A DNA stretch of 57,608 bases from an uncultured virus (IMG/VR IMGVR_UViG_3300027963_000045) (lineage: Duplodnaviria; Heunggongvirae; Uroviricota; Caudoviricetes), in IMG/VR virus record IMGVR_UViG_3300027963_000045, one strand, 5' to 3'. Position numbers and translations under genes: made by a program. This document shows positions 28,912-35,069 of this stretch, in pieces. The notes under the pieces are model-generated. The model was not told where the DNA came from. It saw nothing but the letters and a program-made list of their open reading frames with translations, and did no database searches. Numbering within the stretch: the first letter of the stretch is position 1; each line of letters starts with the position of its first letter.

Positions 28912-30671
28912 TTCAAATAAAAAATCTAACTGTTAAGAATTTCATGAGTGTGGGCAATGCCACACAAGGTGTTGACTTTGATCGCAACGACCTTACTTTG
29001 GTATTGGGAGAAAACTTGGATTTAGGTGGTGATGGGTCACGCAATGGCACAGGTAAGACCACAATTATCAATGCACTAAGCTATGCCTTGTATGGGCAAG
29101 CACTTTCAAATATTCGCAAGGATAACCTTGTGAATAAAACCAACGGCAAAAACATGTTGGTTAGTTTGGAATTTTTTATCAACGGGCAAGAATACAAAAT
29201 TGAACGTGGTCGTAAACCCAACGTGCTGAAGTTCTATGTTAATCACGAACAAAAAACAGCACAAGATGAAGCACAAGGGGACTCTCGAGAAACACAAGAT
29301 GCAATTGAACGTGTCGTTGGTATGAGTCATGAAATGTTCAAGCATATTTTGGCGTTGAACACTTATACCGAACCGTTCTTGAGCTTAAAGGCAAACGATC
29401 AAAGATTAATAATTGAGCAACTGCTTGGTATCACAATGCTAAGTGAACGTGCTGAGCGAATCAAAGAACTAAACAGACAAACCAAAGATGATTTGAGCCA
29501 AGAAGAGTTTCGCATTCGCGCTGTTCAAGAAGCAAACAAGCGTATAGAAGAACAAATCGAAAGCTTGCGAAAACGCCAACGTCTTTGGACTACCAAACGT
29601 GATGAGGATGTTTCTGCATTTGAACAGGCAGTTGCTGATCTTGAGCACATTGATATTGAATCTGAAGTACAAGCTCATCGAGATCTTAAAACTTATCAAG
29701 CAAAACAAAAGGCAATCAACGAACTCAACAAGTGGATTCGTCAAATTGATGCAGATGATGGCAAATTAAACAAACGTTTCACACAGCTCAAGAAAGAACT
29801 TGAGGATATCAAAGCACATCGATGTTTTGCTTGTGGCACAGAGATTCACGACGACAGTCTTGATACTGTAAAAGCCGAACGAGAAAAAGAAAAACAAGAA
29901 ATTGCACTACAACTGTTAACTAACTCTACACAGCAATTAGAGCATCAGGACGCACTGACTGAAATTGGTGAGCTTGGTATTGCTCCAAAAGTATTTTATG
30001 ATTCTTTAGAGCAAGCTCTCAATCATAAAAACACAGTTGAAGGACTGCGCAAAGATTTAAACGCACGCCGTATTGAAATTGATCCGTACTCTGAACAAAT
30101 TGACGACATGACCGGTCAAGCATTGCAAGTTGTAAGCTACGATCGTATCAACGAGCTAACAAAATTACAAGAACATCAAGACTTTTTGCTCAAACTGCTA
30201 ACGTCAAAAGACAGCTTTGTTCGTAAAAAGATCATTGATCAGAATCTAAGTTATTTGAACAGTCGCTTAACACATTACTTGGATCGTATTGGATTACCAC
30301 ATACTGTGAAGTTTCAAAATGACTTGACTGTGAGCATCGAAGAACTGGGTCGTGAACTAGACTTTGACAACTTGAGCCGCGGCGAGCGCACACGACTGAT
30401 TCTTTCAATGTCGTGGGCATTCCGAGATGTGTGGGAAAGTTTGTATCATCCCATCAACTTGTTGTTTATTGACGAGCTCATGGACAATGGTCTTGACACT
30501 CAGGGTGTAGAGAATGGACTTAGTTTGCTTAAACGCATGAGTCGAGAACGTCACAAGAGTATTTGGCTTGTGAGTCACAAAGATGAACTTGCCGGGCGTG
30601 TTGAAAACATTCTCAAAGTTATAAAAGAAAACGGGTTTACTAGCTACAACAATGATATTGACATCGTTTAA
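28908..30671 (+). CDS. gp46: Recombination ATPase subunit (Rad50/SbcC-like)
   Basis: KNFMSVGN, Walker A NGTGKT, coiled coil with CFAC zinc hook, signature LSRGE, Walker B LLFIDE, SH motif. Confidence 0.95.
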   Translation: MIQIKNLTVKNFMSVGNATQGVDFDRNDLTLVLGENLDLGGDGSRNGTGKTTIINALSYALYGQALSNIRKDNLVNKTNGKNMLVSLEFFINGQEYKIERGRKPNVLKFYVNHEQKTAQDEAQGDSRETQDAIERVVGMSHEMFKHILALNTYTEPFLSLKANDQRLIIEQLLGITMLSERAERIKELNRQTKDDLSQEEFRIRAVQEANKRIEEQIESLRKRQRLWTTKRDEDVSAFEQAVADLEHIDIESEVQAHRDLKTYQAKQKAINELNKWIRQIDADDGKLNKRFTQLKKELEDIKAHRCFACGTEIHDDSLDTVKAEREKEKQEIALQLLTNSTQQLEHQDALTEIGELGIAPKVFYDSLEQALNHKNTVEGLRKDLNARRIEIDPYSEQIDDMTGQALQVVSYDRINELTKLQEHQDFLLKLLTSKDSFVRKKIIDQNLSYLNSRLTHYLDRIGLPHTVKFQNDLTVSIEELGRELDFDNLSRGERTRLILSMSWAFRDVWESLYHPINLLFIDELMDNGLDTQGVENGLSLLKRMSRERHKSIWLVSHKDELAGRVENILKVIKENGFTSYNNDIDIV

Positions 30672-31773
30672 TTACAATCACATTGACGAATATCAAATTG
30701 AGATAACGTCTTACTGCAATGCCGCGTGTCCGCAATGTCCTCGAAACGATTTAGGCACAGGTATCAACCCACACATGCCATTAGTACATTTACCAAGGGA
30801 TGTAATCGATCGTGCGTTTCCAAAAGAACTGTGCCAACGTTTACGCATGGTGTTCTTTTGCGGTAGTTACGGCGACCCAACTATGCATCCAGACTTTCTA
30901 AATATTTTGCGAGACTTTAGAAAGAAAAACAAAAAACTTTGGTTGTATATTCACACAAACGGTGGCGCACACAGTCGACCTTACTGGGAAGAAATTGGTA
31001 CCATCATGAACGGCTATGGACAAATTGACTTTGGCATTGATGGATTAGCTGACACACTGCCGTTGTATCGTAAAAACGTTGTGTACGGCAAGGTATTACA
31101 AAATGCTCGTGCATTCATTCAAGCTGGTGGCCGAGCCAAGTGGAACTACATTGTTTTTAAGCATAATGAAGATCAAATTGAAGAGGCTAGAGAAATCAGT
31201 AAACAGTTTGGTTTTGCTGAGTTCTTGGTACGCAATACTGGTAGGTTTTTTAATCATCAAACAGTAGAAGAGATGTCGCATTGGCCGGTCAAGGGCGAAA
31301 GTTATATGCTAGAGCCACCTACAAATCCCGAGTATCGTAACAAGAGCATGTTGTTTTTGCCTGATCTTAAAAAACAGTATGCAAACATCAAAGACTATTT
31401 TGATACTACAGAAATCAAATGTGATGCGCTGATGGGTCGCAAGGTAGCTATCAATGCCGAAGGAATTGTGTTACCTTGCAACTTTTTCAATCACAACTTG
31501 TATGATGCTAGATTTCACGATGGGTCGTTGCCCGGTGCAAACGATCTTAGTAGTACAAATGGACAGAACCAAGTTAGACACTTTTTATCCAAGTATGGTT
31601 TAGATAATCTTAACATACACAACAACAGCTTAGAAGGTATTTTTGAAAATCCCATGTGGGATGATTTGGTTGCTAGCTGGAAAGATAACAGCAGATTGTT
31701 TGAGTGTGCTATGACATGTGGTAGTAAGCTCACAAAAGTATGGGACCAAGGAGGAAACAACCAATATGACTAG
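30652..31773 (+). CDS. Radical SAM protein with a SPASM/twitch-like C-terminus
   Basis: CNAACPQC (CxxxCxxC), G..GDP, TNGG, then C...G.VLPC...C..TC. Confidence 0.88.
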   Translation: MILTSFNYNHIDEYQIEITSYCNAACPQCPRNDLGTGINPHMPLVHLPRDVIDRAFPKELCQRLRMVFFCGSYGDPTMHPDFLNILRDFRKKNKKLWLYIHTNGGAHSRPYWEEIGTIMNGYGQIDFGIDGLADTLPLYRKNVVYGKVLQNARAFIQAGGRAKWNYIVFKHNEDQIEEAREISKQFGFAEFLVRNTGRFFNHQTVEEMSHWPVKGESYMLEPPTNPEYRNKSMLFLPDLKKQYANIKDYFDTTEIKCDALMGRKVAINAEGIVLPCNFFNHNLYDARFHDGSLPGANDLSSTNGQNQVRHFLSKYGLDNLNIHNNSLEGIFENPMWDDLVASWKDNSRLFECAMTCGSKLTKVWDQGGNNQYD

Positions 31774-32374
31774 AGAAATTAAAATTAATAAAACATTTTT
31801 AATCACCGGCGGCAATCGTGGCCTAGGTGCAGTGATCGCTGAATGTTTTAATGGCGTCAGCACAAGCCGGCAAACTGGGGTTGATATTACCAAAGACGTC
31901 GACACTATTGTTGCAGAAAGTTTAAAATACGATGTGTTTGTAAACAACGCATTTGACGGGCCGCCACAAGAGGACTGGGCTAATTTTGCGCAGACCAACT
32001 TATATCTAGCAATCTACGATGCATGGAAAGCTGCCAACAAATCAGGTTATATTTTTAACATAGGTAGTATCGGAAATCGTAGTATTGTTTCTCCTGAACC
32101 TAGATTTGAAACCTATCGTGTTGCCAAGGCTGCGCTGGAACATGCCAGTCGTCAGGGCACCCAAGCATTTAAACAAAATCATGTACCATTTAAAACCACA
32201 CTAATCAACACTGACCGATTGGACACTGAACTCAGTCGTAGCCGTCCTACATGGACTGGTAACGGAGTAAGTTGCTATGACGTTGCAAACTTTATCACCT
32301 ACGCATTACTTACAGGCTCAAATACTTGCATCGAAGATATTTCTTTTTATTGTAACTTCGAACATCAGGCATAA
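31766..32374 (+). CDS. Short-chain dehydrogenase/reductase (SDR)
   Basis: TGGNRGLG Rossmann motif, VNNA, catalytic YRVAK; likely start ATG 31766 overlapping the radical SAM stop. Confidence 0.85.
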   Translation: MTREIKINKTFLITGGNRGLGAVIAECFNGVSTSRQTGVDITKDVDTIVAESLKYDVFVNNAFDGPPQEDWANFAQTNLYLAIYDAWKAANKSGYIFNIGSIGNRSIVSPEPRFETYRVAKAALEHASRQGTQAFKQNHVPFKTTLINTDRLDTELSRSRPTWTGNGVSCYDVANFITYALLTGSNTCIEDISFYCNFEHQA

Positions 32375-32385
32375 TTACATGTCCA

Positions 32386-32814
32386 ATGTCATGGTCCTAT
32401 CAAAATATTCCAGTGGAAACTCTCCCAGAAGATTGCATAGGATTCGTGTATCTAATCACTAACATGACTAGTGGACGCATGTATATAGGCAAAAAACTAG
32501 CAAAATTTTCCAAAACCACCCAACGTACAGTTAAATTAAAAAACGGCAATAAACGCAAGAAAAAAATTCGCACCAAAGTTGATTCAGATTGGCGGGACTA
32601 TTATGGGTCAAGTCCAGAACTAACCAAGGATGTTGAAGCTTTAGGCAAAGACAACTTTAAACGAGAAATTTTATACTACTGTAAAAGCAAATCTGAATGT
32701 TCATACATTGAAGCTAGAGAACAATTTTCACGTAGAGTGTTAGAATCCAAAGATTACTACAACGGCCATATTCAAGTTCGCGTCCACGGCTCCCACATTA
32801 TAGGCAAAATTTAA
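32386..32814 (+). CDS. Small stand-alone GIY-YIG family nuclease (Seg-like catalytic domain, 142 aa)
   Basis: GFVYLITN...MYIGKK (GIY-YIG variant), YYGSS, F.REIL, conserved E (YIEARE) and YYN; no long C-terminal DNA-binding tail. Confidence 0.85.
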   Translation: MSWSYQNIPVETLPEDCIGFVYLITNMTSGRMYIGKKLAKFSKTTQRTVKLKNGNKRKKKIRTKVDSDWRDYYGSSPELTKDVEALGKDNFKREILYYCKSKSECSYIEAREQFSRRVLESKDYYNGHIQVRVHGSHIIGKI

Positions 32815-33250
32815 ACAGTTACGACTCGCACAGGTCAACTTCATGTGTCCTAAACCTGGATCTCGGATCGCAGGGATGGAAGTCTTGCCGCTGTAGCAAG
32901 CACTCAGCAACTATCCTTGACAGGACGACGATCGCAAATTGCCGCGGTTTTGCTGTTTGAAAAGAATTTAAAGGCTAAAAAGACGTAGCAGTGATGCTAT
33001 ACTTTATACTACCCAGTTAGCGTTGAGTAGTATAAACGCCGTTGTGATAAGAACTGAGCTCGAGGTACCGGACAACCGCCTCTGTAATCGCTTTAACGCT
33101 AATGACTGTGCTACTCGGATGATGCCTAGCATTTCATTTTTGCCCTGTGCGGGCAAAGTGTGACTGATTAATCTGGATGATAACTTAAATCGCTTCGCTC
33201 TAAACAATGTGTGAGCGCAAGCGAAACACATAGATGTGCAAAGCACATCT
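32815..33250 (+). ncRNA. Candidate large structured non-coding RNA (or structured DNA element)
   Basis: Longest non-coding gap in the window; about ten helices visible by eye, a GNRA-capped hairpin, an 11-bp pseudoknot with G-U pairs on the + strand, and twin TGACTG-N8-GGATGAT motifs. Confidence 0.7.
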
Positions 33251-33624
33251 CAATACAGTTTCTCTTCAATGATAACACTTTGACAAAGTATGTTAATTTG
33301 TTTTTTGACTTTGGCTCTTAAGTCATTCTTGAGATAAACGTTTCTTGCTAGTTGAATGAATTCATCGTCAAATTGATTCCGTTTTTCGTGATCTCGTTTG
33401 GCATTCTCAATATCCCATAACTCTTGATTAATGGCTTTTAGTTCAAGACGCAACTGTCTAACTGAGTCTACTAGGTCATGATTGTGTAATACCTTCAACA
33501 GTTCCATTAACTCATATTGTATGTTATTTCTTTGTTCTGGTGTTGTTGCGTGATCAATCTTTAGTTCCAAGATTGTGATCTTGTCTACAAGTTCACCTAC
33601 GCTGACAGGAACATGTACAATCAT
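33250..33624 (-). CDS. Conserved hypothetical protein (DUF6165-like)
   Basis: PVSVGELVDKITILELK...LWDIE...FI.LAR.VY..ND.RA..K..IN pattern; likely start 33624 (ATGA overlap with the upstream gene). Confidence 0.7.
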   Translation of the reverse strand: MIVHVPVSVGELVDKITILELKIDHATTPEQRNNIQYELMELLKVLHNHDLVDSVRQLRLELKAINQELWDIENAKRDHEKRNQFDDEFIQLARNVYLKNDLRAKVKKQINILCQSVIIEEKLY

Positions 33625-33956
33625 AGATTTTGATCTGGCCAATCTCTAAACAGTGCATGTTGTATGTTGCCATTGACAAACTGATTGAAACTCTTGTGTT
33701 TGGTTTCAAGTTCTCCCTCACGTGGCACAACTCGTTTAAATGCCTGATCCATTTGTGCCATGTCACGGAACTCCATGATAATCATCCACTCTGGCATATC
33801 AGCGATGCTACGGAATCCCATCTTGCATCGTGTGATCCTGTATGACACCATTTTGTCTTCTGATATCAAATGATCAAAAAAGCTTTTCATTCCGTTGACC
33901 CAGTCCAAGTCTGAGATATCGCCTTCTTTGTCTGCCCAAATTGTATATAAATCCAT
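33621..33956 (-). CDS. Hypothetical protein, dimeric alpha-beta barrel-like (DUF6614-like)
   Basis: Y.ITR.KMGF...PEW.II.EF.DMAQ.D.AF pattern, FALYRDFPD-like end. Confidence 0.55.
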   Translation of the reverse strand: MDLYTIWADKEGDISDLDWVNGMKSFFDHLISEDKMVSYRITRCKMGFRSIADMPEWMIIMEFRDMAQMDQAFKRVVPREGELETKHKSFNQFVNGNIQHALFRDWPDQNL

Positions 33957-33958
33957 AG

Positions 33959-34393
33959 TTACTCCATTGGTCCTAATAGTTCAAAGCCAGCTAGACTTTG
34001 TTTGTACAGATGTGCTTGTTCCAAATACAAGTATTTGAATCCACGTTGTTTGTAAATAGCACATTCTGTTTGCAATGTTGTGATACCCAAACGCAGTTTT
34101 GGATTGTGGTAGTTCCAAGCAAATTGATCACACAGTGCATTTTCATCGTCGTAGCGTCGGATCAAACTAAACGCTACCAGTTTGTCTTGATCATAGTAAC
34201 CCAGAACATCAGTCATTGGGTCAGTGTAACGACTATCAAATATAGGCATCACTGATGCAAATCTTTTGTGTTTACAGTACTCTCTGTAGATGTTGTTCAA
34301 CGCGGCAATGTTGGGATTTTGAAGATACTCCCACTTTACGTTTGTATCATAGTTGGTCTTGCTCAAGTCAATTCTGGCAAACTGATAAGTCAT
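33959..34393 (-). CDS. Minimal arginyl/aminoacyl-tRNA-protein transferase C-terminal-like (ATE_C/GNAT) protein
   Basis: GYYDQDKLVAFS...WNYHNPKLRLG..TL..E....K.RG.KYLYL....YK resembles the Ate/Bpt C-terminal domain. Confidence 0.6.
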   Translation of the reverse strand: MTYQFARIDLSKTNYDTNVKWEYLQNPNIAALNNIYREYCKHKRFASVMPIFDSRYTDPMTDVLGYYDQDKLVAFSLIRRYDDENALCDQFAWNYHNPKLRLGITTLQTECAIYKQRGFKYLYLEQAHLYKQSLAGFELLGPME

Positions 34394-34893
34394 GCTCGCG
34401 GATCTTTACGATTATGGAACAACTGTGTTAGATACTCTTCTGACCAGTTGTGATAAAATCCTTTGCTGGCCATCTGCTGAGCTTTGGTGTTCAAGTCGCT
34501 AAGGCATTGCACCAAAGCCAATGCATACTGACCCTGATTCATGATGACGCCATTGACGTTTTCTACATCTGCTGGGTGATCCTCCAGGGCCAAAATATCG
34601 TTACGAAGCAGGTGTTCTTGATTTGCAGCTTCTATGCTGGCACTAAACAAATCATATGGCCATTCTGCAGGATCATATGCATAGATAATAACTTCCTTGT
34701 TGCCCATGCCATACCGTGCTCGGTTCTTGAGATCAAAGTAAGGGTCACTGCCTAGATAAACTTCAAATGTACGTTTGAGTCTTGCTGATCGTGCAAACGG
34801 ACAGGGCGGCCAACCACCCAGGGCAGGATGTGGAACTTCTACAAAGTTCTCTATCCAGGATTCTATATCTGCTTGTACTTGTTCTAGATTCAT
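34390..34893 (-). CDS. Hypothetical protein (DUF1415-like)
   Basis: WI..FV.....PCPFA and DHP motifs resemble DUF1415. Confidence 0.5.
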   Translation of the reverse strand: MNLEQVQADIESWIENFVEVPHPALGGWPPCPFARSARLKRTFEVYLGSDPYFDLKNRARYGMGNKEVIIYAYDPAEWPYDLFSASIEAANQEHLLRNDILALEDHPADVENVNGVIMNQGQYALALVQCLSDLNTKAQQMASKGFYHNWSEEYLTQLFHNRKDPRA

Positions 34894-35069
34894 TAGAAGA
34901 AAGGTAGTTGTGTTTTCTTGGTAGTTTCCAAATTCTCTTTTATAAGATCACTGACAATCAGTCTCTCGGTCATGCTTAGATTCATAGCTTCATTATAGGT
35001 AAGACCACCGCGCATGTACCAACACAATTTTATCAACTCGCTTTTGATGGCCTTGGCCTCCCGCTCCAT
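34893..35069 (-). CDS. Small baseplate hub / tail assembly chaperone C-terminal part (gp51-like, 58 aa)
   Basis: Below the ORF-track cut-off: MEREAKAIKSELIKLCWYMRGGLTYNEAMNLSMTERLIVSDLIKENLETTKKTQLPFF. Its stop overlaps the next ATG (TAATG), and the frame is open upstream to a slippery site. Confidence 0.75.
   Translation of the reverse strand: MEREAKAIKSELIKLCWYMRGGLTYNEAMNLSMTERLIVSDLIKENLETTKKTQLPFF

What the first reader, a model, noticed from the sequence alone, without database searches (positions are those of the whole stretch)
33103..33181. Twin TGACTG-N8-GGATGAT motifs with different 8-nt cores flanking a hairpin
Seen: TGACTG-tgctactc-GGATGAT (33103-33123) and TGACTG-attaatct-GGATGAT (33161-33181) share 13 flanking bases around equal-length variable cores. 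They are 58 nt apart, with the tttgccc-tgtgc-gggcaaa hairpin between them. Known: the flanks resemble box D (CUGA) and box C (RUGAUGA), and TIGR-Tas guide RNAs use two short spacers bracketed by box C/D-like motifs. Inference: this could be a dual short-guide module, a pair of K-turn/K-loop protein-binding sites, or DNA iterons for a dimeric protein. No Nop-domain protein is recognisable in the window, so the TIGR comparison is only an analogy.
Basis: partly seen in the sequence, partly recalled or inferred. Interest (0 to 1): 0.75.

Follow-up and report, generated by a model that had tools for sequence, protein, structure and literature searches.

The report
Matched twin words in phage RNA
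The two motifs are real parts of a large folded RNA of giant T4-like freshwater phages, and their shared seven-base ending changes from phage to phage yet is almost always the same in both copies, which points to one common, still unknown reader.

Summary
TGACTG-N8-GGATGAT occurs exactly twice in the window, at 33103-33123 and 33161-33181, around the hairpin 33139-33157.

The pair lies in a roughly 430-nt structured RNA (about 32820-33250, + strand). This RNA follows a 142-aa GIY-YIG gene in a T4-like jumbo phage. Its first 136 nt match Rfam Polynucleobacter-1 (117.8 bits). The rest, including the twin motif, is in no Rfam family.

The guide, K-turn and TIGR readings fail:
- The 8-nt cores are nearly invariant in close relatives.
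- The first core is partly the 5' strand of a hairpin stem.
- The "box C-like" flank is not a constant box.

Instead, the 7-mer flank is the variable part. Fifteen different words were seen. In 160 of 161 distinct RNAs both copies carry the same word; the exception differs at one base. A directed search found one more such exception.

No complementary or third copy co-varies in cis, or in 1.58 Mb of phage contigs. The GIY-YIG protein does not track the word.

Best reading (about 0.4): twin docking sites for one lineage-specific trans-acting reader.

The parts
32386..32814 (+). 142-aa GIY-YIG gene (catalytic domain only), the constant upstream neighbour of the RNA
   Evidence: Pfam PF19835 SegE_GIY-YIG, E = 2.9e-34, covering 1-123 of 123 profile positions. 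A homologue lies upstream of the RNA in 19 of 20 loci and in 66 of 75 loci. Its residues do not track the word.
32820..33250 (+). Whole structured RNA, about 430 nt. Boundaries are taken from where conservation starts and stops.
   Evidence: Conservation profile over 103 distinct RNAs. Many Watson-Crick covarying column pairs. GNRA and UUCG loops read on the + strand.
32823..32958 (+). 5' domain, equal to the Rfam Polynucleobacter-1 RNA
   Evidence: cmscan RF01718: 117.8 bits against a gathering score of 37, E = 3.8e-26, model positions 1-141 of 141.
33017..33024 (+). Loop strand of pseudoknot 1 (TTAGCGTT). It pairs with 33095-33102.
   Evidence: Columns 33020/33099, 33021/33098 and 33022/33097 are 100% Watson-Crick or G-U, each with 2-3 pair types. 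Examples are visible.
33038..33045 (+). 5' strand of pseudoknot 2 (GCCGTTGT). It pairs with the 13-nt hairpin loop at 33072-33079.
   Evidence: 5 of 5 pairs are kept in 222 of 240 loci, with 7 distinct fully paired combinations.
33062..33082 (+). Hairpin GAGG / CCTC whose conserved loop is TACCGGACAACCG. This is the anchor used for the unbiased sampling.
   Evidence: Column pair 33063/33081 is 100% Watson-Crick with 3 pair types. The anchor scan is.
33095..33102 (+). 3' strand of pseudoknot 1 (AACGCTAA), directly abutting motif copy 1
33103..33123 (+). Motif copy 1: box TGAC, the 5' strand of the hairpin-1 stem (within 33101-33113), fixed A-CTC (33113-33116) and word 1 GGATGAT (33117-33123)
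   Evidence: Stem support: core 1 against the following sequence, z = -12.5. The window's minimum-energy fold pairs 33101-05 with 33135-39 and 33110-13 with 33127-30.
33124..33138 (+). 3' strand of hairpin 1 and a U-rich linker
33139..33157 (+). Central hairpin TTTGCCC-TGTGC-GGGCAAA
   Evidence: Its two variable stem pairs are paired in 222 of 223 loci, with 9 combinations.
33161..33181 (+). Motif copy 2: box TGAC, core, fixed A-TCT (33171-33174) and word 2 GGATGAT (33175-33181). No specific closing stem was detected.
   Evidence: Core 2 against the following sequence gives z = -0.9.
33207..33250 (+). Two 3'-terminal hairpins: 33207-12 / 33226-31 enclosing GAGCGCAAGCGAA, and 33232-39 / 33243-50. 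The RNA probably ends here.
   Evidence: Covarying pairs 33210/33228 and 33235-38/33244-47. Read on the minus strand, the last hairpin is terminator-like for the convergent gene. Conservation stops after about 33250.

Best explanation
The twin motifs are two functional single-stranded segments of one large structured phage RNA. Each has a pyrimidine block (A-CUC or A-UCU) followed by a purine-rich 7-nt word. Copy 1 sits in the loop of a hairpin. Copy 2 lies in the strand that leaves the central hairpin.

I take the two words to be twin docking sites for one and the same trans-acting reader. Its specificity would differ between phage lineages, so any change of the word must be made in both copies.

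Shown: the RNA, its fold around the motifs, and the near-perfect identity of the two words across 15 word types.
For: 1. The pair is conserved. 108 of 110 judgeable family loci from an anchor-based sample have both copies, and all 108 are concordant.

2. Over 103 distinct RNAs the three variable word positions share their full entropy with the same position of the other copy: 0.99, 0.93 and 1.19 bits, 100% identical. No other column of the RNA exceeds 0.57 bits.

3. In the widened sample, 160 of 161 distinct twin regions share an exact word of at least 7 nt. With partners permuted this holds for 169 of 810. Fifteen words occur, including transversions: GCATAAT, GGAAAAT, AGTCAAG, ACAGAAT.

4. 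A tree was built from the rest of the RNA. On it the word type changes at least 29 times (position 1: 16, position 5: 6, position 7: 12), each time in both copies.

5. Gene conversion is unlikely. The adjacent CTC versus TCT stay different in 103 of 103, and the base after the word is G in 98 (copy 1) against A in 87 (copy 2) of 103.

6. Identity also extends partly to variable flanking positions: -5 is 73% identical, and +2 is mostly T/T or C/C.

7. No cis partner was found.

From general knowledge, not tested here: matched sites whose sequence differs between phages are known where one phage-specific factor reads several sites, as with the nutL and nutR boxB sites and the N proteins of lambdoid phages.
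Against: No reader was found.
- The neighbouring GIY-YIG protein has no residue that tracks the word. The best mutual information is 0.41-0.52 bits against entropies of 0.73-1.19.
- The complement of the word is not enriched near the RNA or in the window.
- I joined 11 contigs totalling 1.58 Mb, one of them 99% complete. The genome's own word or its complement is no commoner there than other genomes' words: 8.9/8.4 against 9.1/7.8 per 100 kb. Of 260 occurrences, 57 could be aligned to another contig. At none of those 57 does a contig with a different word carry its own word.
- A protein would need many finely discriminating specificities, because some words differ by one transition.
- Two RNAs with one mismatch (G in copy 1, A in copy 2 at position 1) show that identity is not absolute.
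- Only copy 1 has statistical support for lying in a hairpin loop.
- Expression of the RNA is not shown.
Confidence: 0.4

Rival explanations
1. RNA-only structural role. The two segments make equivalent contacts inside a pseudo-symmetric fold or in a homo-oligomer of the RNA. In the extreme case they pair with each other like-with-like in parallel orientation. The only rule would then be that both strands read the same, and no external reader exists.
For: - No co-varying partner was found in cis, in the window or in 1.58 Mb of phage contigs.
- Identity holds whatever the base, transversions included.
- The long connector between the copies (hairpin 1's 3' strand, the central hairpin, the box and core 2) would allow a parallel arrangement.
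- All fixed differences between the copies are between bases of the same class: C/U three times and G/A once.
- Copy 2's UCU|RGA is a near-palindrome that could support self-association (direct reading).
- From memory only: other large ornate phage RNAs have been reported to form RNA-only multimers.
Against: - I know of no natural RNA with a 7-pair like-with-like duplex (recalled; no search was made for this).
- In an antiparallel self-duplex, positions 1 and 7 would face each other, yet all six combinations occur (word list). No pairing rule is therefore visible.
- Pairing energy between the two loops is no better for true partners than for permuted ones: -4.15 against -4.19.
- In the one RNA with A at word position 2 (L024), the near-palindrome is broken without compensation.
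Confidence: 0.25
2. DNA-level direct repeats. The two copies would be sites for a DNA-binding protein (iterons), or short homologies used for recombination or copy-choice, kept alike by the need for homology or by gene conversion. The RNA fold around them would be incidental.
For: - They are direct repeats flanking a GC-rich hairpin.
- Identity irrespective of sequence is what crossover regions of recombination sites need (general knowledge).
- One locus (L022) has lost copy 1 and the hairpin.
Against: - Everything around the repeats covaries as RNA on the + strand.
- The span from the start of copy 1 to the end of copy 2 varies from 72 to 79 nt among the 21 closest sequences and more widely in the family, so helical phasing is not kept.
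- Conversion would also erase the fixed CTC/TCT and G/A differences, which persist.
- The L022 deletion does not join word to word (sequence).
- No recombinase, reverse transcriptase or initiator domain is found among the 50 window ORFs scanned.
Confidence: 0.08
3. Box C/D-like K-turn pair or a TIGR-Tas-like dual-guide module. Constant box D-like and box C-like flanks would bracket two short variable guides.
Against: - The supposed box C varies (AGATAAT, GCATAAT, GGAAAAT, AGTCAAG and others), which removes the tandem G-A pairs a K-turn needs.
- The 5' box is GUGAC in both copies, not CUGA.
- The cores are near-invariant among close relatives and partly form a stem strand.
- No Nop, L7Ae, fibrillarin or Cas domain is found in the window.
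Confidence: 0.02

Closest known systems
Polynucleobacter-1 RNA motif (Rfam RF01718; Weinberg et al. 2010, PMC2864571)
   Same: The first 136 nt of this RNA match the model end to end at 117.8 bits. The habitat fits: the paper's table gives Burkholderiales and fresh water/estuary. I saw the table row and the seed-alignment header in the supplements.
   Different: The Rfam model is 141 positions long. Here the conserved, covarying RNA runs about 290 nt further, and the twin motif lies wholly outside the model. The paper lists the motif as probably cis-regulatory. Here it follows a gene and faces a convergent gene, so no gene lies downstream on its strand.
nutL/nutR boxB sites read by N proteins of lambdoid phages (recalled, not consulted)
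   Same: Two RNA sites in one phage carry the same short sequence. The sequence differs between related phages, because one phage-specific factor reads both sites.
   Different: Here both sites lie about 58 nt apart in one large RNA, 15 words exist, and no reader is known.
Box C/D sRNAs and TIGR-Tas tigRNAs (the analogy in the finding)
   Same: Two short segments with a repeated architecture lie in one RNA.
   Different: There is no constant box C or D, no K-turn signature, no Nop-domain protein and no variable spacers between constant repeats.
Large 'ornate' phage-associated RNAs such as GOLLD and ROOL (recalled)
   Same: Several hundred nucleotides, many covarying helices and pseudoknots, phage-borne, function unknown.
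   Different: cmscan at E up to 10 found no match to any such family in 31000-35000. Matched internal words are not, to my knowledge, described for them.
Matched take-off and landing codons of translational bypassing (T4 gene 60; recalled)
   Same: Identical short words flank a hairpin-containing gap of about 50 nt in a T4-type phage.
   Different: That mechanism needs an open reading frame running through the site. Here the frame that reads the word as codons comes out of a stop and ends in TAG right after copy 1 (direct reading), and the region covaries as RNA.

Membership tests
Polynucleobacter-1 RNA (RF01718) | Covariance-model score at or above the curated gathering score of 37 bits | tested here: met
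   117.8 bits, E = 3.8e-26, at 32823-32958 on the + strand, full model length. This covers the 5' domain only. The twin motif at 33103-33181 lies outside the model.
Polynucleobacter-1 RNA (RF01718) | The element is a roughly 141-nt motif lying upstream of a gene (listed as probably cis-regulatory) | tested here: not met
   Conservation and covariation continue to about 33250. The next gene is convergent, at 33250-33642 on the minus strand.
Box C/D K-turn RNA / TIGR-Tas guide | Conserved box C and box D sequences that supply tandem G-A pairs | tested here: not met
   The 3' flank takes 15 forms, many without the needed GA. The 5' box is GUGAC.
Box C/D K-turn RNA / TIGR-Tas guide | A Nop-domain (Tas), L7Ae or fibrillarin gene associated with the RNA | tested here: not met
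   A Pfam scan of 50 window ORFs finds none (7, 43 of at least 75 aa). The constant neighbour is a GIY-YIG gene.
Box C/D K-turn RNA / TIGR-Tas guide | Variable spacers between constant repeats | tested here: not met
   The cores have 2 and 4 variants in the 20 closest loci. Core 1 is a stem strand. The variable element is the flank.
CRISPR mini-array / solitary repeat units | Full-length identical repeats around a variable spacer, with cas genes or a host repeat to mimic | tested here: not met
   The copies share only a box and the word. The segment between them is a conserved hairpin. No Cas domain is found. Mimicry of a host repeat could not be tested, because the host is unknown.
Type III toxin-antitoxin RNA repeats | Tandem identical repeats next to an endoribonuclease toxin gene | tested here: not met
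   The copies are not tandem and not identical. No ToxN- or AbiE-type domain is found among the scanned ORFs.
Translational bypassing element | A coding frame entering the take-off word and resuming after the landing word | tested here: not met
   The only ORF across copy 1 is a 46-aa TTG-started frame, 33023-33163. The frame that reads the word as codons runs into TAG at 33127-33129. The RNA covaries.
DNA iterons for a dimeric protein | Fixed spacing in helical phase, and a cognate DNA-binding protein | tested here: inconclusive
   Spacing varies, which argues against this. No candidate protein was identified. Binding is not testable with these tools.
Twin sites for a phage-specific RNA-binding factor (nut-like logic) | A reader whose sequence co-varies with the sites | tested here: inconclusive
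   Only the GIY-YIG neighbour was tested, and it does not co-vary. Other phage or host proteins could not be tested.

The most novel reading that the evidence does not exclude
The two words are a freely rewritable, matched specificity code. A jumbo-phage RNA would present two identical 7-nt seeds to grip one host or rival-phage nucleic acid, or a dimeric factor. The word would act as a lineage-specific address that could be reprogrammed by changing both copies. The evidence equally allows an even stranger variant: the two words pair like-with-like, which would be a kind of 'identity covariation' not used so far to find RNA structure.
Probability: 0.2. Interest if true: 0.85.

Novelty: new variant of a known kind. 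Interest (0 to 1): 0.72.

Why it matters
1. A motif catalogued in 2010 as a 141-nt, probably cis-regulatory element turns out to be the head of a roughly 430-nt pseudoknotted RNA. This RNA is carried, one copy per genome in the 15 contigs checked, by a large group of uncultured T4-like jumbo phages.

2. The matched words are a rare signal. Standard covariation methods look for complementarity and are blind to two sites that must stay identical. Here that signal is nearly perfect over 15 word types, so it marks a specific, testable interaction surface on an RNA of unknown function.

3. If a reader exists, the word may define compatibility or exclusion groups among co-occurring phages. If none exists, the RNA uses an unfamiliar structural rule.

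Either way, the one-word and two-word swap experiment is simple and decisive.

Tried and rejected
- DNA search of 50,697 deposited phage records with 32800-33260 found no match, so no cultured carrier is known from that collection.
- No whole genome is held for the window. An attempt to centre a genome search on a genus name was not accepted.
- My one genome-contig scan used too loose a pattern. Its 78 loci were chance hits, with no blastn or tblastn similarity to the RNA or its neighbours. Whether bacteria, such as the Polynucleobacter genome in the Rfam seed, carry the full RNA therefore stays open.
- Sequencing runs: one metatranscriptome contig covers only part of the GIY-YIG gene. A run guessed to be RNA covers relatives of the RNA, but it may be DNA. 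No verdict on expression.
- RNAalifold on the MAFFT alignment of the twin region gave only 2 pairs. A contiguous-helix test for closing stems was not significant: 3.54 against 3.2, and 3.14 against 3.11. The duplex-energy test with permuted partners replaced it.
- Complement of the word:
  - not enriched in the window;
  - not enriched within about 700-1500 nt of the RNA: 0.18 cognate against 0.13 non-cognate per locus;
  - an RNAduplex scan of the window gave only the antisense self-hits as outliers;
  - a pattern search in 5 contigs gave the antisense self-hits plus 2 extra sites in one contig;
  - the 11-contig orthology test gave 0 of 57.
- Pairing of the loops with each other, of core 1 with core 2, and of cores with the other copy's flank is no better than with permuted partners.
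- The GIY-YIG protein as reader: no tracking residue. The closest cultured-phage homologue (Melnitz, 49.6% identity) has only a 148-nt gap after the gene, so the protein occurs without the RNA.
- A scan for relatives of the divergent L067 word found only its own contig.
They are not exhaustive.
- Literature: 'Polynucleobacter-1' and 'RF01718' each occur in one paper of the library, Weinberg 2010. A search on GIY-YIG, noncoding RNA, T4-like and covariation gave nothing relevant. In PMC9602691 I read the passages, which concern other RNAs.

Full report
**Observation.** The sequence shows TGACTG-tgctactc-GGATGAT at 33103-33123 and TGACTG-attaatct-GGATGAT at 33161-33181. The hairpin TTTGCCC-TGTGC-GGGCAAA (33139-33157) lies between them. 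These are the only exact matches of the 13-base pattern in the window.

**Setting.**
- The window is part of a T4-like myovirus. It encodes a gp20-type portal, gp23 capsid protein, prohead protease, gp25 and baseplate proteins, and gp46/47-like nucleases.
- One related contig of 345 kb is rated 99% complete, so these are jumbo phages.
- The motifs lie in a 435-nt gene-free stretch (32815-33249). It sits between a 142-aa GIY-YIG gene on the + strand and convergent minus-strand genes. The GIY-YIG gene is the SegE-type catalytic domain only.
- No tRNA gene is found in the window.

**What the stretch is.**
- cmscan finds Rfam Polynucleobacter-1 at 32823-32958 on the + strand, at 117.8 bits against a gathering score of 37. 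Nothing else appears at E up to 10 in 31000-35000.
- Homologues were collected in three ways:
  - the exact twin pattern (20 loci);
- Alignments show conservation from about 32820 to about 33250.
- Column pairs with two to four Watson-Crick pair types and 90-100% pairing define at least ten helices.
- Two helices are pseudoknots:
  - 33017-24 with 33095-102;
  - 33038-45 with the anchor loop 33072-79, where 222 of 240 loci keep 5 of 5 pairs in 7 combinations.
- The central hairpin between the motifs keeps its two variable pairs in 222 of 223 loci, with 9 combinations.
- GNRA and UUCG loops and the Rfam hit fix the strand as +.

So the finding lies in the 3' domain of a roughly 430-nt structured RNA whose first third is the known Rfam motif. 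The only paper in the library that names that motif is Weinberg et al. 2010. There I saw one table row (probably an RNA, probably cis-regulatory, Burkholderiales and fresh water/estuary) and the seed alignment header.

**The cores are not guides.**
- In the 20 closest loci the first 8-mer is TGCTACTC (12 loci) or TGATACTC (8 loci). The second has four variants differing at one or two bases.
- Family-wide, the last four bases of each core are fixed. A at -4 occurs in 101 of 103 (copy 1) and 97 of 103 (copy 2). CTC in copy 1 and TCT in copy 2 each occur in 103 of 103.
- The 5' part of core 1 pairs with the bases that follow the first 7-mer. Duplex energy is -4.17 kcal/mol for true partners against -2.65 for permuted partners, z = -12.5. 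Compensated examples visible: CTGTTC/GACAG, TGAAC/GTTCA and GTGAC/GTCGC.
- Copy 1 therefore sits in a hairpin loop. For copy 2 no specific closing stem is detectable (z = -0.9).

**The flank is the variable, matched element.**
- In the anchor-based sample, 113 of 119 loci belong to the family. The script counted 114; one of these, L042, is a false positive.
  - 3 loci are too short.
  - 108 have both copies in the common form, and all 108 carry the same 7-mer twice.
  - The two others are a deletion variant with copy 2 only (L022) and a divergent RNA (L067) that has ACAGAAT in both copies.
- Over 103 distinct full-length RNAs, word positions 1, 5 and 7 vary: G 58 / A 45; G 67 / A 36; T 66 / A 30 / G 7. 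Each shares all of its entropy with the same position of the other copy (0.99, 0.93, 1.19 bits). The next best column reaches 0.33-0.57 bits.
- In the widened sample I examined 260 sequences. Of these, 234 have the recognisable architecture, giving 161 distinct true twin regions.
  - 160 share an exact word of at least 7 nt.
  - One (L520) has GGAGAAA against AGAGAAA.
  - With permuted partners, 169 of 810 reach 7 nt.
- Fifteen words occur: GGATGAT, GGATGAA, GGATGAG, GGATAAT, AGATAAT, AGATGAA, AGATGAT, AGATGAG, GAATGAT, GAATAAT, GCATAAT, GGAAAAT, RGAGAAA, AGTCAAG and ACAGAAT. Only position 6 (A) is constant, and position 5 is always a purine.
- A tree was made from the RNA without the twin region. 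On it the word type changes at least 29 times, always in both copies. It is a quick tree on about 340 columns, and recombination of the twin module could inflate this count. The 15 words alone still require many parallel double changes.
They found one distinct RNA (L293 = L332) with GGATGAT and AGATGAT.
- Identity is partly kept at variable flanking positions too: -5 is 73% identical, and +2 is mostly alike.

**Why not gene conversion or chance.** The bases touching the word stay different between the copies throughout. CTC against TCT holds in 103 of 103. The base after the word is G in 98 of 103 (copy 1) and A in 87 of 103 (copy 2). A conversion tract would have to stop exactly at the word's edges every time.

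**Search for a partner.**
- No column of the RNA co-varies with the word.
- The word's complement is not enriched within the fetched flanks, at 0.18 against 0.13 per locus, nor in the window.
- Energy scans give only the antisense self-hits.
- In five contigs a pattern for the complement plus purines finds the antisense self-hits and two extra sites in one contig.
- I then joined ten contigs plus the window (1.58 Mb, 10 word types).
  - Each genome's own word or its complement is as frequent as other genomes' words: 8.9/8.4 against 9.1/7.8 per 100 kb.
  - Of 260 occurrences, 57 have an alignable counterpart in another contig. At none does a genome with a different word carry its own word.
  - This test sees only DNA-alignable contexts, and most contigs are 17-53% complete.
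- The GIY-YIG gene lies upstream in 19 of 20 and 66 of 75 loci, sometimes with one ORF in between. However, no residue follows the word, and homologues occur without the RNA, as in Melnitz, which has a 148-nt gap after the gene. Linkage may be synteny within one phage group. This agrees with the earlier scan note e1-8002962 on a related RNA.

**Interpretation.**
- Shown: a large structured RNA; copy 1 in a hairpin loop; two words that must be alike but may be almost anything purine-rich.
- Inferred, most likely: one reader contacts both words, so a change is tolerated only when made twice. Matched sites of this kind are known for factors with phage-specific specificity (the lambdoid nut sites, recalled).
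  - The many closely spaced word types and the all-four-bases identity at flanking positions fit base pairing better.
  - The purine bias, the constant A6 and the absence of any complement in the phage DNA examined fit a protein, a host molecule, or no external reader at all.
- The main rival is an RNA-only role: a pseudo-symmetric fold, an oligomer, or even like-with-like pairing of the two strands.
- The box C/D, K-turn and TIGR readings fail on every defining feature tested.
- The DNA-repeat reading is weakened by the variable spacing and by the RNA covariation around the repeats.

**Limits.**
- Expression is not shown.
- No cultured carrier is known.
- Bacterial copies were not examined, because my genome-collection scan was wasted on a loose pattern.

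Noticed in passing
window 33038-33045 and 33072-33079: The strongly conserved 13-nt hairpin loop (TACCGGACAACCG) forms a pseudoknot with GCCGTTGT about 25 nt upstream. Seven different fully paired combinations occur, for example GTCAT/ATGAC and GTCGG/CCGAC, and 222 of 240 loci keep 5 of 5 pairs.
   Followed up: yes
window 32930-32959: The end of the Rfam Polynucleobacter-1 model looks like an intrinsic terminator: a hairpin followed by a T-rich run. However, the T-rich run is itself paired in the covarying helix 32905-09 / 32951-55. This may explain why the motif was originally cut off there.
   Followed up: partly
window 33171-33178 (copy 2), and the same place in relatives: The junction of the pyrimidine block and the word in copy 2 (UCU|RGA, often AUCU|RGAU) is self-complementary if G-U pairs are allowed. 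Copy 1 (CUC|RGA) is not. This could support RNA-RNA self-association. It is uncompensated in the one RNA with A at word position 2 (L024).
   Followed up: partly
L022 (viral contig locus): This is a natural deletion variant of the RNA. It lacks the 3' strand of pseudoknot 1, motif copy 1 and the central hairpin, but keeps copy 2. The junction is not word to word.
   Followed up: partly
L010 248-1222 and L015 327-1145 (oriented loci): In two relatives a 324-aa or a 272-aa ORF sits between the GIY-YIG gene and the RNA. The pair can therefore be split by insertions.
   Followed up: no
window 32386-32814 and deposited phage records: Homologues of this small GIY-YIG protein occur in 500 deposited phage records, 339 of them Synechococcus phages. 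Among the listed records several are annotated 'NAD synthetase', which looks like a propagated misannotation.
   Followed up: no
window 33959-34893 (minus strand): Downstream convergent genes include a weak ATE_C (arginyl-tRNA protein transferase C-terminal) match and DUF6875, DUF6614 and DUF6165 proteins. An earlier scan note (e1-5877655) describes a similar arginyl-transferase-like cassette in another freshwater phage.
   Followed up: no
window 30652-32374: A radical SAM enzyme (373 aa) overlaps a short-chain-dehydrogenase-like ORF just upstream of the GIY-YIG gene. Radical SAM relatives occupy the same position in many related loci.
   Followed up: no
window 33023-33163 (+): A 46-aa TTG-started ORF runs through copy 1 and the hairpin and stops in the TGA of the second TGAC box. 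Given the RNA covariation it is most likely spurious. Its conservation was not tested.
   Followed up: no
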